From NCBI RefSeq assembly GCF_017302985.1, contig NZ_JAFIMU010000011.1:1-61685 (forward strand): DNA of 61,685 nt, written 5' to 3'. Each line of letters starts with the position of its first letter. Position 1 is the stretch's first letter. The notes under the pieces are model-generated. The model saw nothing but the letters and a program-made list of their open reading frames with translations. It searched no databases and was not told the DNA's origin. Source of the stretch: Corallococcus macrosporus. GTDB lineage: Bacteria; Myxococcota; Myxococcia; Myxococcales; Myxococcaceae. The position numbers and the translations under genes are program-made. Positions 38,605 to 41,427 of the stretch are shown here, piece by piece.

Positions 38605-40200
38605 CTAGCCGTTGATGCGCACCATCGCGACGTCGTAGTGGCGGTCCGTCACGTAGCCGTTCGCGGCCTTGCCGGGGCGGTACATGTTCCCGGTCTTGTC
38701 ATCCACGTAGAAGCGGTTGTTCGGGTTCGTGTCCTTGCCCTTGCTGGCGTTGGTCGTGCCCGGGTCGTGGAACGTGTAGTAGGTGCGGCCCTTCTCGTCG
38801 ACGCCGCGGCCCGTGATGGTCACGAAGTGGTCCGTGAGGCCATCCACGTTGTAGTTCGAGTCCTTGTGGCTCACGCCCACGACCACCGGCTTGCCGGCGT
38901 TCAGCTGCTGGTCGATGTACTTGCGGCCCTCGGCGGCCTTCTTCGAGTCCACGTTGAGCGCGCCGACGCCGTTCTCGCTCTTGCCCACCTGGATGCGGCG
39001 GTCGGGGCCCAGCACGTTCGCGCCCTTCGCGCCCGCCATCGCCACCGCGGCCTTGAAGCACGCCGTGTCGCTGGGGGTGTAGCCGTGGCCGCCCTCGAAC
39101 TGGCTGTAGTACGGCACCTTCACGTGCACCGCCGGGCCCGACTTGGACGGGGCCACCTGCTGCGTGTCCGTGCGGTCCGCCTCCGTGGTGGGCTTGGAGG
39201 TGTTCGTCCCCTGCGTCGTGCCCGGCTTGGAGCCGTTGCTCACGGACGGGGGCACCACGCCCGTGTTGGTGTTGGACGGCTTCGTCGTGCCGCCCGCCTG
39301 CTCGTTCTTGAGCATGGCGAGCGCGTCCTTCACCTCCGACTTGAAGCGGTTCGCCACGCCCTTCTGCACGTCCTTGGAGTTGCCGGAGAAGTGCACCAGG
39401 GTGCCGCTGGCGTTCGTACGGCCGCGCTCGGCGTAGATGTCCTTGATGAGCTGCTCGTCGCTCACCTTCGCGGGGTCGCGGCCGGCCAGCGCCTTCTTGA
39501 AGATGTCGTCCGCCGCGCCCGGGCCGTGCTGCACGGAGGTGGACCAGGCCACGTCACGCAGCGCCGCGGAGCGCTTGTCCAGGTCGATGCCCGTCGCCTT
39601 CTTGATGTTGGCGGCGCCCGGATCGTAGTGCGTGGCCTTGATGTAGTCGTGCTGCGCCTTGTCGAAGCCCTTCGGGTCCTTCGCCGCCAACTGCTTCCAC
39701 TTGGCGGAGAACTCCGCGGAGCCCGGCTTGCTGCCCGACAGCGCCTGGTAGTAGTCCGGGTTCGACTTCTTCAGCGAGTTGACGAAGGACTGCGCGGAGC
39801 CGTTCGCGGACGCGAACTGGTAGGAGCCGTAGGACACGCCGCCCTTGTCACCCTTGCCCGTGGACACGGTGCCGGGGCCGCGCGCCTCGTACTTGCGGCT
39901 CAGCGAGCCCAGCTCTCCGCCCGCCTGGGTGCTGGTGCCGCCCTCGGGGGAGGGGGTCGTCTTCTGCGTGCCGTTGGTGGACTGCGTGAAGCTGTCGCCC
40001 GACGTCTTGGTGCCCGAGCTCGACTTCGTGCCCTTCGACTCGAAGCCGTCCCCCCGCACCTTGAGCGTCTGGCCCGCGAGGATCTTGTTCGGATCCTTGA
40101 TGTTGTTCGCCTTGGCCAGCGCGTCGACGGTGGTGTCGTAGCGCTTCGCGAGCCCGGAGAGCGTGTCGCCCGAACGAACCTTGATGTTGGAGACGGTCAT
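38605..40200 (-). CDS. LysM + peptidase C39-like (Cys/His) domain cell-wall hydrolase-like protein
   Basis: N-terminal LysM '[43 protein letters not shown]'. C-terminal '[10 protein letters not shown]...SDTACFKAA...GKPVVVGV...DHFVTITG...YTFHDPG' matches the Peptidase_C39_2 pattern. Central domain is unassigned. No N-terminal signal peptide. Confidence 0.7.
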
Positions 40201-40389
40201 GGGGAGCCCCTCATGTCAGGCCGCGAACACAGGCGCGCGGACGTGCTTGGAATGCGGTGATTATCGAAAGGCAATCCGCTCAGTTTCGCATTCCCAGTCA
40301 CAATCGCGCTAAACCAGTGATTCCAGTGACTTCAGTTTCGACAGATCAATCCGCCGAGACTAGAGAACCCGCCCAGGAGGCCCAATCGG

Positions 40390-41427
40390 ATGTCCAGGAT
40401 CCAACCGGATTTCAAAAGTATGGCGTTGCTGTTTGCCGTATGTGTCATGGGCGCGGTCCCGGACGCCCTGGCCCAGCAGGGGGCTGATGGCCTCACGGGG
40501 GTCTATTCGAGCAAGAGCGGGACGCTGGCCATCGTCGAGGGCAGCAACGAGACGCTGGTGCACTTCTCGGGGTCGTTCCCGCAGGGCAGCAGCGCGGGCA
40601 CCTGTGATTGCGCCTGGGTCGTCCAGAAGAAGACGGCCACGGCCTGGACCCTGAGCCAGACGGATGATCCGACGCCCTGGACGCTGCGCGTCAATCCCAA
40701 GCAGTTCGTGCTGGAGTCCGGCCCGACGCCTCAGTGTTGCGGTGCGGGCTACCCGGGCAAGGACTCGTTCGCGCGGAGCACGTCCAAGCCGCTCGGCATC
40801 TGCAAGGTGAAGGCGTCCAAGGCGGGCTTCCACGCGTCGGACGCGGCCAACAGCGCGCGCAAGGCGTTCGTGGTGTCCGGCGACGCGGTGGAAGCGTACG
40901 TCGACCCGCTGGAGCCGGACTTCCTCGCCGCGCGCTTCCAGGGGCCGCAGAAGGCCACCGCGGGGTTGATCAAGCGCGAGGACCTGGACTGCGCCGCGGA
41001 CTCAGCGCCCACGACCGCCAAGGCGCCGGTGGCCTCGGACAAGCTCCAGCCCTTCGCGGGGACGTGGGTGGAGCTGACGCGCCAGGGCAAGGGCTTCGTC
41101 GTCCTCAAGCCCTGTTCCGCCGCGACGCGCAGCTTCACCGTCAAGCCCGCGACGGGCGAGGTGGAAGTGCAACTGGGCCAGGAGGCCACGACGCTGAAGG
41201 TGACGTCCGTGGAGCCGGGAAAGGGCGCCGGGGCCTGGGTGCTGGGGCTCACGTCCTCCGACGGCAAGCCGGAGGCGCTCCAGTGGAAGACGGCCGACGC
41301 CGCGAAGGGCACCGTGACCGTGACCAGCCCGGACCTCTTCTCCCAGAGCCACGACTACGTGCGCCAGGAGAAGAAGTCCGCGTTCCCGTCCAAGCAGGAG
41401 ACGGGCTGCGACGAGTACGAGCGCTGA
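40390..41427 (+). CDS. Secreted hypothetical protein (signal peptide)
   Basis: 'MALLFAVCVMGAVPDALAQQ' signal peptide; probable start at the ATG at 40420. Cys-containing, no known domain. Confidence 0.5.
   Translation: MSRIQPDFKSMALLFAVCVMGAVPDALAQQGADGLTGVYSSKSGTLAIVEGSNETLVHFSGSFPQGSSAGTCDCAWVVQKKTATAWTLSQTDDPTPWTLRVNPKQFVLESGPTPQCCGAGYPGKDSFARSTSKPLGICKVKASKAGFHASDAANSARKAFVVSGDAVEAYVDPLEPDFLAARFQGPQKATAGLIKREDLDCAADSAPTTAKAPVASDKLQPFAGTWVELTRQGKGFVVLKPCSAATRSFTVKPATGEVEVQLGQEATTLKVTSVEPGKGAGAWVLGLTSSDGKPEALQWKTADAAKGTVTVTSPDLFSQSHDYVRQEKKSAFPSKQETGCDEYER

What the first reader, a model, noticed from the sequence alone, without database searches (positions are those of the whole stretch)
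38605..41427. LysM + C39-like hydrolase without a signal peptide, divergent from a secreted unknown protein
The 531-aa protein starts directly with a LysM domain (no Sec signal). It has a central Gly/Ser-rich region of unassigned fold and a C-terminal Cys/His papain-like Peptidase_C39_2 domain ('YYSQ', 'TACFKAA', 'DHFVTITG'). This combination looks like an exported peptidoglycan-targeting effector, for example for predation or a contact-dependent system. The divergently transcribed neighbour (40390..41427) has a signal peptide and no known domain. It could be a periplasmic immunity or partner protein.
Basis: partly seen in the sequence, partly recalled or inferred. Interest (0 to 1): 0.5.

Follow-up and report, generated by a model that had tools for sequence, protein, structure and literature searches.

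The report
Two-headed cell-wall toxin with fused antidote
A soil predator bacterium (Corallococcus) encodes a signal-less enzyme carrying two different cell-wall-cutting toxin domains, both related to type VI secretion toxins, beside an exported protein that looks like two antidote modules fused into one; this is a new variant of a known kind of bacterial weapon.

Summary
Both ORFs are real, native-looking genes of a Corallococcus genome. The 531-aa protein has no signal peptide. It is not "LysM + unassigned region + C39". It is LysM, then a VgrG3-C-type muramidase (PF21277, E 3e-53), then a papain-like Cys/His/Asp domain. That last domain's closest solved relative is the toxin domain of the Bacteroides fragilis T6SS effector BtaeB (E 4e-19).

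The divergent 345-aa neighbour is Sec-exported and has 8 invariant cysteines. It lies directly upstream in 24 of 25 loci with the full enzyme, across six genera whose other flanking genes differ.

Best reading: an orphan effector-immunity pair. The effector is a bifunctional peptidoglycan hydrolase delivered without Sec, most likely by the T6SS. The neighbour is a fused two-module periplasmic immunity protein.

The delivery route, the bonds cleaved and Module A's role are inferred, not shown. This is a new variant of a known kind, of moderate interest.

The parts
38605..40200 (-). Effector gene, 531 aa, no signal peptide: LysM, linker, VgrG3C-like muramidase, linker, BtaeB-CTD-like Cys peptidase/amidase
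   Evidence: ORF and translation; GC3 0.98; domains; 95% identical to a Corallococcus caeni protein
40057..40182 (-). LysM peptidoglycan-binding domain (aa 7-48)
   Evidence: Pfam PF01476 E 3.7e-16; begins within about 10 residues of the N-terminus in all 38 aligned homologues
39919..40050 (-). Ser/Thr/Gly-rich disordered linker 1 (aa 51-94)
   Evidence: pLDDT below 50; highly variable in length, and holds a second LysM in some homologues
39334..39912 (-). VgrG3-C-type muramidase domain with a chitosanase-like fold (aa 97-289). Putative catalytic Glu105 is nt 39886-39888 and Asp118 is nt 39847-39849
   Evidence: PF21277 E 3.4e-53; 4noo_A E 3.9e-27; Foldseek TM 0.79-0.82 normalised to the target; Glu105 and Asp118 kept in 28 of 28 sequences that have this region
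39145..39291 (-). Thr/Ser/Pro/Asn-rich disordered linker 2 (aa 304-352)
   Evidence: pLDDT below 50; poorly conserved
38608..39129 (-). Papain-like C-terminal toxin domain, homologous to the BtaeB CTD (aa 358-531). Cys381 is nt 39058-39060, His458 is nt 38827-38829, Asp479 is nt 38764-38766
   Evidence: 9jdd_A E 4.2e-19 by sequence; Foldseek E 2.2e-13, TM 0.73; Cys/His/Asp invariant in 38 of 38; Pfam Peptidase_C39_2 only sub-threshold
40201..40389 (.). Shared 189-bp divergent intergenic (promoter) region. A GATAAT (-10-like) hexamer on the minus strand lies at 40260-40265, about 60 bp upstream of the effector ATG
   Evidence: Sequence; the hexamer recurs in most genera in alignment A3; the consensus promoter scan found nothing, so this is weak
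40390..41427 (+). Putative immunity gene, 345 aa, Sec-exported, with 8 invariant Cys
   Evidence: ORF; alignment A2; conserved divergent synteny in 24 of 25 loci; model pLDDT 78.7, all-beta
40390..40473 (+). Signal peptide (aa 1-28, predicted signal peptidase I site A-L-A|Q)
   Evidence: Read from the sequence; A28 and Q30 invariant; pLDDT below 50 for residues 1-33; no conserved lipobox
40480..41004 (+). Module A (aa about 31-205): N-terminal beta-barrel (37-130, five of the invariant Cys) plus an SH3b-like domain (136-201). Proposed inhibitor of the muramidase domain
41023..41424 (+). Module B (aa about 212-345): C-terminal lipocalin-like beta-barrel, BtaiB-like. Proposed inhibitor of the C-terminal toxin domain

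Best explanation
The two genes form an orphan effector-immunity pair; 'orphan' means not linked to any secretion-system genes.

The 531-aa protein is an antibacterial, bifunctional peptidoglycan hydrolase. Its N-terminal LysM domain docks it on peptidoglycan. A VgrG3C-type muramidase domain (Glu105/Asp118) would cut the glycan strands. A papain-like Cys381/His458/Asp479 domain of the BtaeB type would cut the peptide stems or cross-links; the exact bond is not known.

The protein has no Sec or Tat signal. It would therefore leave the producer by a Sec-independent, contact-dependent route and act in the periplasm of a neighbouring cell. The most likely route is the myxobacterial type VI secretion system, with this protein as a cargo effector.

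The divergently transcribed 345-aa protein is exported by Sec into the producer's own periplasm. There it would protect against self- or sibling-delivered toxin. It is a fusion of two immunity modules. Module B, a BtaiB-like barrel, would block the C-terminal toxin domain. Module A, a barrel plus an SH3b-like domain, would block the muramidase.

Shown here: domain homologies, conservation of catalytic residues, absence of a signal in the enzyme and its presence in the neighbour, conserved pairing, modularity of the neighbour, and co-location of Module B alone with a CTD-only enzyme. Inferred: enzymatic activities, inhibition by binding, the role of Module A, and the T6SS route.
For: (1) Both toxin domains have T6SS effector domains as closest solved relatives. 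These are V. cholerae VgrG3C (4noo/4nso, E 4e-27) and the B. fragilis BtaeB CTD (9jdd/9jg8, E 4e-19); the predicted structure confirms both.
(2) Catalytic residues are conserved: Glu105/Asp118 in 28 of 28, and Cys381/His458/Asp479 in 38 of 38.
(3) None of 38 homologues has a signal peptide. The neighbour has a conserved Sec signal and 8 invariant Cys. A signal-less toxin with an exported partner is the pattern established for periplasm-acting T6SS effector-immunity pairs.
(4) The neighbour lies directly upstream and divergent in 24 of 25 loci with the full enzyme (Corallococcus, Cystobacter, Archangium, Stigmatella, Pyxidicoccus, Myxococcus sp.), while the other flanking genes differ.
(5) An exhaustive profile search splits the neighbour into Module A and Module B, each occurring alone. 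Module B alone lies beside a CTD-only enzyme with 62% identity to the window's CTD. Module A alone overlaps by 4 bp the end of a PF21277 gene.
(7) Precedents exist. M. xanthus TsxE is a LysM-bearing T6SS effector (PMC5801462). [quoted passage not shown] A. baumannii Tae17 is a T6SS cargo effector with LysM, a glycan-cleaving domain and a Cys/His amidase (PMC11796386).
(8) The CTD also sits at the C-terminal tip of an Rhs polymorphic toxin (L052).
Against: No vgrG, paar, hcp or adaptor gene lies in the window near the pair or in seven annotated homologous loci. I did not verify that this Corallococcus genome has a T6SS.

The genes are divergent, not the usual co-directional effector-then-immunity order.

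Module A's link to the muramidase rests on one adjacency. Two other stand-alone Module A genes have no PF21277 neighbour. Two muramidase-only loci have no Module A.

Thirteen paralogue loci and ten CTD-only loci carry the same CTD without any detectable Module B nearby.

The BtaeB primary paper is not held, so the chemistry of that domain is unverified here.
Confidence: 0.6

Rival explanations
1. The toxin-antidote pair is the same, but the effector is delivered by a different Sec-independent route. Candidates are the myxobacterial contact-dependent predation machinery (Tad-like Kil system or the atypical T3SS*), outer-membrane vesicles, or release by lysis of part of the population. The target would then be prey rather than siblings.
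For: No T6SS gene is linked to the pair in any locus examined. The effectors of the Kil and T3SS* systems are unknown, and those systems cause prey death and lysis (PMC10433427). The hosts are all predatory Cystobacterineae. The CTD is used with several delivery contexts elsewhere: an Rhs protein, and possibly WXG/T7SS in Actinomycetota.
Against: Both toxin domains' closest characterised relatives are T6SS effectors. A LysM-bearing T6SS effector already exists in M. xanthus. No evidence links any protein of this family to Kil, T3SS* or vesicles.
Confidence: 0.2
2. The enzyme is a housekeeping or developmental autolysin that remodels the producer's own wall, for example during fruiting-body autolysis or spore formation. 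The neighbour would be its periplasmic regulator or inhibitor.
For: Myxobacteria remodel and degrade peptidoglycan during development (general knowledge). LysM plus hydrolase is a common autolysin architecture (NCBIfam LysM-region hits to MltD, DipM and ActS). The locus is chromosomal and stable within Corallococcus.
Against: Without a signal peptide the enzyme cannot reach its own periplasm. The pair moves as a two-gene module between unrelated genomic contexts. Its distribution is patchy and it is absent from M. xanthus. Both domains belong to interbacterial toxin families.
Confidence: 0.08
3. The enzyme is a prophage endolysin or a remnant of a virion-associated lysin. It would be signal-less because a holin or the virion gives it access to the wall.
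For: Endolysins lack signal peptides. Modular endolysins of Gram-negative hosts have an N-terminal wall-binding domain. The VgrG3C-like domain occurs inside giant proteins of jumbo phages (phrog_34863 at 4e-43 and phrog_26249 at 5e-42; Erwinia and Pseudomonas phages at about 40% identity).
Against: No phage genes flank it. All PHROG endolysin hits cover only the LysM region. No phage record covers 80% or more of the protein. The conserved partner is a soluble exported beta-protein with no PHROG match, not a holin or spanin.
Confidence: 0.04
4. The neighbour is functionally unrelated and its adjacency is accidental.
For: Divergent orientation gives no operon link. The neighbour has no annotated domain.
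Against: It is co-located in 24 of 25 loci across six genera with different flanks. The module-by-module co-location with single-domain enzymes argues the same way.
Confidence: 0.02

Closest known systems
BtaeB-BtaiB (Bfe7 and its immunity protein) of the Bacteroides fragilis GA3 T6SS; PDB 9jdd, 9jg8, 9jg9; Li W. et al., Cell Host Microbe 2025, PMID 41072405 (cited in PMC13402684; primary paper not held)
   Different: BtaeB is 617 aa with an unrelated N-terminal region, and it lies in a T6SS cluster with an adaptor (BtapC). BtaiB is a 150-aa lipoprotein encoded directly downstream. Here the domain is fused to LysM and a muramidase. The immunity module is fused to a second module, carries a signal peptidase I signal, and is encoded divergently. 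No T6SS genes are nearby.
VgrG3 C-terminal domain and TsiV3 (TsaB) of Vibrio cholerae; PDB 4noo, 4nso; Pfam PF21277
   Same: The central domain is a clear family member (E 3e-53). It shares the chitosanase-like fold and keeps the Glu/Asp pair. VgrG3C is a peptidoglycan glycoside hydrolase (PMC6099711, PMC12663445).
Bifunctional T6SS peptidoglycan hydrolases: Tae17 of Acinetobacter baumannii (PMC11796386) and TseP of Aeromonas dhakensis (PMC11893102)
   Same: Tae17, as read here, is a signal-less modular cargo effector combining a glycan-cleaving and a peptide-cleaving domain joined by flexible linkers, and it carries a LysM domain. TseP is described in its abstract as a dual amidase-lysozyme T6SS effector.
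   Different: The catalytic families differ: Tae17 has a lytic transglycosylase plus a Tae3-like amidase. Tae17 has an Ig-like VgrG-binding domain and is linked to vgrG17. I found no description of a fused two-module immunity protein for them in what I read.
TsxE-TsxI of Myxococcus xanthus (MXAN_5572/5571; PMC5801462)
   Same: A myxobacterial LysM-bearing, cell-wall-directed T6SS effector with a cognate immunity protein, used against siblings.
   Different: TsxE has an amidohydrolase_2 domain, lies downstream of vgrG2, and has a co-directional immunity gene. No homology to it was established here beyond the LysM domain.

Membership tests
PF21277 T6SS_VgrG3-like_C (VgrG3C-type muramidase) | Pfam model match above the gathering score | tested here: met
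   180.8 bits against a cut-off of 27, E 3.4e-53, profile positions 1-182 of 183
PF21277 T6SS_VgrG3-like_C (VgrG3C-type muramidase) | Chitosanase/lysozyme-like helical fold | tested here: met
   Model helical over residues 135-303. Foldseek to 4noo_A E 3.8e-10, TM 0.79; 4nso_A TM 0.82; weak match to chitosanase 4ily
PF21277 T6SS_VgrG3-like_C (VgrG3C-type muramidase) | Catalytic Glu/Asp pair retained | tested here: met
   Glu105 and Asp118 align with the Glu and Asp of 4noo_A and are kept in 28 of 28 sequences. [quoted passage not shown]
PF21277 T6SS_VgrG3-like_C (VgrG3C-type muramidase) | Hydrolysis of peptidoglycan glycan strands | not testable with these tools
   Needs a sacculus digestion assay
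BtaeB-CTD / Peptidase C39-like papain-fold toxin domain | Sequence homology to the solved BtaeB CTD | tested here: met
   9jdd_A E 4.2e-19 and 9jg8_C E 4e-18, residues 358-501
BtaeB-CTD / Peptidase C39-like papain-fold toxin domain | Cys/His/acid triad conserved | tested here: met
   Cys381, His458 and Asp479 in 38 of 38. They align with C, H and E of BtaeB
BtaeB-CTD / Peptidase C39-like papain-fold toxin domain | Pfam PF13529 Peptidase_C39_2 match above the gathering score | tested here: not met
   16.6 bits against a cut-off of 24, E 0.012, covering only the His-containing end of the profile. It should not be filed as a Pfam C39_2 member
BtaeB-CTD / Peptidase C39-like papain-fold toxin domain | Defined bond specificity (amidase or endopeptidase) | not testable with these tools
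   Primary BtaeB paper not held; needs muropeptide analysis
T6SS cargo effector | No Sec/Tat signal on a periplasm-acting toxin | tested here: met
   No upstream in-frame start; no hydrophobic N-terminus in 38 of 38
T6SS cargo effector | Adjacent cognate immunity gene whose product is exported | tested here: met
   Synteny in 24 of 25 loci; signal peptide and 8 invariant Cys. Immunity function itself is inferred
T6SS cargo effector | Genetic linkage to vgrG, paar, hcp or an adaptor, or fusion to such a domain | tested here: not met
   None in the window neighbourhood nor in loci L001-L007. No such Pfam domain appears in the top 120 homologues. Unlinked effector-immunity loci are nonetheless usual in M. 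xanthus (PMC10433427)
T6SS cargo effector | Host genome encodes a T6SS; secretion depends on it | not tested
A T6SS is documented for M. xanthus only. Dependence needs genetics
BtaiB-type immunity protein (Module B of the neighbour) | BtaiB-like lipocalin-type barrel | tested here: inconclusive
BtaiB-type immunity protein (Module B of the neighbour) | Sequence or profile relationship to BtaiB | tested here: inconclusive
   BLASTP E 0.007. hhalign E 0.0064 but probability 5.9%. The modB profile gives E 0.01 to BtaiB and 0.0015 to the L055 immunity-position ORF in 6,054 ORFs; these were the only hits outside the family
BtaiB-type immunity protein (Module B of the neighbour) | Encoded next to a BtaeB-CTD-type toxin | tested here: met
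   Window and 24 loci. Stand-alone Module B lies beside a CTD-only enzyme in L072
BtaiB-type immunity protein (Module B of the neighbour) | Binds and inhibits the toxin domain | not testable with these tools
   No complex prediction was available; needs pull-down or co-expression rescue
Phage endolysin | Phage lysis-cassette context (holin, spanin) or endolysin family match in a catalytic domain | tested here: not met
   No phage genes nearby. PHROG endolysin hits cover only LysM residues 4-86

The most novel reading that the evidence does not exclude
This family could be the missing lytic cargo of the myxobacterial contact-dependent predation apparatus (Tad-like Kil system and/or the atypical T3SS*), whose effectors are unknown. 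More broadly, it could be exported by a route not yet described for LysM-first proteins. The fused two-module partner would then protect predator cells from one another inside the swarm.
Probability: 0.15. Interest if true: 0.8.

Novelty: new variant of a known kind. Interest (0 to 1): 0.5.

Why it matters
If correct, four things follow.
- It adds a conserved, genus-spanning, bifunctional cell-wall effector to the very short list of myxobacterial contact-dependent toxins. In what I read, only TsxE and MXAN_1813 are characterised T6SS effectors in M. xanthus.
- It extends the recently solved BtaeB/BtaiB toxin-immunity family from gut Bacteroides to soil predators, to an Rhs toxin, and possibly to actinobacterial WXG-type proteins.
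- It gives a clean natural example of matched modularity: a two-toxin fusion paired with a two-antidote fusion, with each module also found alone. Domain-by-domain specificity of immunity could be tested directly on it.
- It gives a function to two uncharacterised protein modules: about 70 representative clusters for Module A and about 20 for Module B.

It is not a new kind of system. The components and the logic are known.

Tried and rejected
- **PDB-code paper search.** Searching for 9JG8/9JDD/9JG9 returned only noise.
- **Two papers read in hope of a direct match.** The Lysobacter LssL paper and the VgrG3cp pesticin-like paper concern unrelated enzymes.
- **BtaeB primary paper.** Cell Host Microbe 2025 is not held, and the citing paper gives no chemistry.
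- **PADLOC.** No defence-system match for either protein.
- **Promoter and terminator scan.** No sigma-70-like site in the intergenic region; one terminator-like hit inside the coding sequence is at chance level.
- **Neighbour profile against PDB sequences.** Nothing meaningful.
- **Small genes beside muramidase-only relatives (L006, L007).** No similarity to the neighbour.
- **Domain-wise HMMs from the 21-sequence alignment.** No diverged partner in paralogue, CTD-only or muramidase-only loci. The wider modA/modB profiles also found none there.
- **BtaiB relatives beside other BtaeB-CTD homologues (L055-L071).** None by phmmer, so no BtaiB profile could be built.
- **Internal duplication of the neighbour's two barrels.** No signal by hhalign.
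- **afdb50 fold library.** Not available.
- **Foldseek cross-check of the BtaiB match.** Negative.
- **Larger proteins carrying Module A or B.** No Pfam domains.
- **Third Module A context (L074).** The upstream fragment is not VgrG3C-like.
- **Lipoprotein reading of the neighbour.** Rejected, because the Cys in the signal peptide is not conserved.
- **T6SS adaptor or chaperone reading of the neighbour.** Rejected, because it is exported and rich in conserved cysteines.
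Full report
**1. Observation**

Both ORFs exist as stated. ORF 38605..40200(-) encodes 531 aa. It begins at the first start codon after an upstream stop, so no longer, signal-bearing form is possible. ORF 40390..41427(+) encodes 345 aa. The window is about 70% G+C. Third-position G+C is 0.98 and 0.93 for the two genes, like their neighbours, so both look like real, native genes. The best database match is a Corallococcus caeni protein at 95% identity.

The quoted motifs are present. 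LysM covers residues 7-48 (Pfam E 3.7e-16).

The 'central region of unassigned fold' is a strong match to PF21277, T6SS_VgrG3-like_C (residues 97-289, E 3.4e-53, 180.8 bits against a cut-off of 27). It also matches the solved V. cholerae VgrG3C domain (4noo/4nso, E about 4e-27). Only the two linkers (51-94 and 304-352) are low-complexity and predicted disordered.

The 'Peptidase_C39_2' label is a sub-threshold Pfam match (E 0.012, 16.6 bits against a cut-off of 24).

**2. Anatomy of the enzyme**

The AlphaFold model (38-sequence alignment, mean pLDDT 72.7) shows three folded modules joined by disordered linkers:
- LysM;
- a helical domain, about residues 97-303;
- an alpha/beta domain, about residues 355-531.

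Foldseek against the PDB gives three significant hits:

| Target | What it is | E-value | TM (normalised to target) |
|---|---|---|---|
| 9jdd_A | BtaeB CTD, from the entry 'type VI secretion system effector-immunity complex BtaeB CTD-BtaiB from Bacteroides fragilis' | 2.2e-13 | 0.73 |
| 4noo_A | VgrG3C with TsiV3 | 3.8e-10 | 0.79 |
| 4nso_A | VgrG3C with TsiV3 | 2.2e-08 | 0.82 |

By sequence, the C-terminal domain matches 9jdd_A at E 4.2e-19.

In a 38-sequence alignment, Cys381, His458 and Asp479 are invariant, as are Ser366, Gln367 and Asp457. Glu105 and Asp118 align with a Glu and an Asp of VgrG3C. They are kept in 28 of 28 members that carry this domain.

VgrG3C is described as a peptidoglycan glycoside hydrolase with chitosanase-like catalytic residues (PMC6099711; PMC12663445). 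That Glu105 and Asp118 correspond to its catalytic pair is my recollection of the structure papers, not something checked here.

The protein is therefore a bifunctional wall hydrolase: a glycan-cutting domain and a Cys-peptidase or amidase domain behind a LysM anchor. None of the 38 homologues has an N-terminal hydrophobic stretch.

**3. The neighbour**

It has no match in Pfam, NCBIfam, PADLOC or PHROGs. Its alignment shows a conserved signal-peptidase-I-type signal (A28 and Q30 invariant) and 8 invariant cysteines. Both point to an extracytoplasmic protein. The cysteine inside the signal peptide is not conserved, so it is not a lipoprotein.

Its model (mean pLDDT 78.7) is all-beta with three parts:
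- a barrel, residues 37-130;
- a small domain, residues 136-201;
- a second barrel, residues 216-336.

**4. Is the pairing real?**

In Cystobacter fuscus, Archangium violaceum and Stigmatella erecta, a homologue of the neighbour (45-52% identity) lies divergently upstream of the enzyme gene. Every other flanking gene differs.

I then ran a census by tblastn and domain HMMs on the first 53 loci fetched:

| Enzyme architecture | Loci with the neighbour (all three parts, divergent, about 190-250 bp away) |
|---|---|
| Full: LysM + muramidase + CTD | 24 of 25 |
| Myxococcus paralogue (different middle domain) | 0 of 13 |
| CTD only | 0 of 10 |
| Muramidase only | 0 of 2 |

The single exception among the full-enzyme loci is a second copy in a genome that already has one pair. 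The two genes travel as a module, so chance adjacency is excluded.

**5. What the neighbour is**

I recovered the BtaeB locus from a metagenome (L054). A 150-aa lipoprotein just downstream of the 617-aa effector was confirmed as BtaiB (E 1.5e-90 to 9jdd_B). BLASTP aligns BtaiB co-linearly with neighbour residues 220-306 (E 0.007, 19% identity). hhalign finds the shared P-x-x-x-x-W-x-x-x-T-x-x-x-x-G-[FY]-V-[VI] start of the barrel, but with only 5.9% probability. Foldseek does not reproduce the match. Taken alone, the BtaiB link is suggestive, not proven.

The decisive result is the exhaustive profile search of 1.84 billion representative proteins. The neighbour splits into two units that occur independently:
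- **Module A** (profile positions about 10-200: N-terminal barrel plus SH3b-like domain) occurs as dozens of 190-220 aa proteins.
- **Module B** (positions about 200-340: C-terminal barrel) occurs as 125-180 aa proteins, the size of BtaiB.

The contexts fit a module-to-domain correspondence:
- A stand-alone Module B (155 aa) lies divergently beside a 242-aa enzyme that has only the CTD (62% identity to the window's CTD, E 5e-81).
- A stand-alone Module A (200 aa) overlaps by 4 bp the end of a 668-aa PF21277 gene, the classic coupled effector-then-immunity order.
- Two other Module A genes are orphans.

Wider Module A and B profiles were searched against all 6,054 ORFs of the 73 loci held at that point. 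Outside the family there were only two hits, both for Module B:
- BtaiB itself (E 0.01);
- the lipoprotein directly downstream of another BtaeB-CTD homologue in L055 (E 0.0015, 96 aligned columns). It shares the P-C-x-A motif and a C-terminal 'ECDEDE' resembling the family's invariant 'GCDEYE'.

Both hits are genes in the immunity position of BtaeB-type toxins. The two barrels of the neighbour are not detectably related to each other.

**6. Mechanism**

Best-supported reading: an orphan effector-immunity pair. The effector is anchored to peptidoglycan by LysM. It attacks both the glycan strands and the peptide stems or cross-links. It lacks any Sec or Tat signal, so it must reach a periplasm other than through the producer's own Sec pathway. 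The partner is exported to the producer's periplasm, where it would neutralise incoming or leaking toxin. Module B would act on the CTD and Module A on the muramidase.

The signal-less toxin plus exported partner pattern, and the T6SS origin of both closest relatives, make T6SS cargo delivery the most likely route. Three precedents support this:
- M. xanthus TsxE is a LysM-bearing T6SS effector (PMC5801462).
- A. baumannii Tae17 is a T6SS cargo effector with LysM, a glycan-cleaving domain and a Cys/His amidase (PMC11796386).

Shown here: homologies, conserved residues, signal status, synteny, modularity, and the co-location of Module B alone with a CTD-only enzyme.

Inferred: activities, inhibition, Module A's role, and the route.

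Evidence against the T6SS route:
- No vgrG, paar, hcp or adaptor gene lies near the pair in the window or in seven annotated homologous loci.
- No such domain appears in the top 120 homologues.
- The genes are divergent rather than co-directional.
- I did not verify that the host genome has a T6SS.

**7. Rivals**

- **Same pair, different route** (Kil/Tad-like system, T3SS*, vesicles or lysis). This is not excluded. The effectors of the predation machinery are unknown.
- **Developmental autolysin.** This is unlikely, because the enzyme cannot reach its own wall and the pair is mobile and patchily distributed.
- **Phage endolysin.** The muramidase domain does occur inside giant jumbo-phage proteins. 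But PHROG endolysin hits cover only LysM, no phage record holds the whole architecture, no phage genes flank it, and the partner is not a holin or spanin.

**8. Wider family**

The CTD behaves as a polymorphic toxin module. It occurs:
- at the tip of a 2,073-aa DUF6443 + RHS protein in a Bacteroidetes MAG (L052);
- fused to PG_binding_1, SH3_3 or LysM in Myxococcota;
- behind a WxG-like N-terminus in Actinomycetota MAGs, where the WXG100 match (E 0.02) is sub-threshold and only suggestive.

**9. Verdict**

Two things were missed: the enzyme has two toxin domains, and the neighbour is a matching two-module fusion. It is a new variant of a known kind (a T6SS-type peptidoglycan-hydrolase effector with immunity). 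Interest is moderate, at 0.5.

Noticed in passing
window 41446..43890 (-): An 814-aa bacterial homologue of the eukaryotic major vault protein lies immediately downstream of the neighbour gene (MVP_shoulder E 3.6e-45; Vault, Vault_2, Vault_3 and Vault_4 repeats). It is not conserved next to the pair in other genera.
   Followed up: no
L004, L029-L039, L049 (Myxococcus spp.); proteins P0055-P0103: A paralogue clade keeps the LysM and the same C-terminal toxin domain (about 55% identity) but has a different middle domain of about 250 aa ('GTSEGNR...GGHTDPGN..NRGSFSYQG'). That domain has no Pfam or PDB sequence match. None of the 13 loci has a detectable homologue of the neighbour, so their immunity protein, if any, is unknown.
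   Followed up: partly
L005:5001-5849 (+) (Corallococcus GCA_026965535.1): At the same chromosomal locus as the window, this strain has an extra tandem gene directly after the enzyme. It encodes LysM plus the C-terminal toxin domain only (282 aa, 84% identity).
   Followed up: partly
L041:5578-6531, L044:5689-6540, L045:5578-6549 (Actinomycetota MAGs): The C-terminal toxin domain (55-59% identity to the myxobacterial one) is fused to an N-terminal region with W-x-G motifs. The WXG100 match is sub-threshold (E 0.02). This would suggest type VII secretion delivery and recent transfer between phyla.
   Followed up: partly
L052:103-6324 (+) (Bacteroidetes MAG): A 2,073-aa DUF6443 + RHS-repeat protein ends in a relative of the C-terminal toxin domain (34-37% identity), so the domain is also used as an Rhs polymorphic-toxin tip.
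   Followed up: partly
phage records H1-H15 (e.g. OP729297.1 45498-46190; PQ015379.1 238876-239586): The VgrG3C-like muramidase domain (about 40% identity) is embedded in very large proteins of jumbo phages of Erwinia and Pseudomonas and in a Listeria phage (phrog_34863 and phrog_26249, function unknown). They may be virion-associated wall-piercing enzymes.
   Followed up: no
P0044 (Archangium violaceum, 536 aa): This homologue lacks the N-terminal half of the muramidase domain, including the Glu/Asp pair, while keeping LysM and the C-terminal domain. It may be a decaying copy or an assembly or annotation artefact.
   Followed up: no
L073:2387-2953 (+); L074:303-959 (+): Stand-alone Module A genes lie with no VgrG3C-like gene nearby. 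They are possible orphan immunity genes, or a sign that Module A has another role.
   Followed up: partly
window 35672..38499 (+): A LysR-type regulator is followed by a long-form aromatic amino acid hydroxylase (NCBIfam PRK14056, E 7e-191). This pair also flanks the locus in another Corallococcus genome.
   Followed up: no
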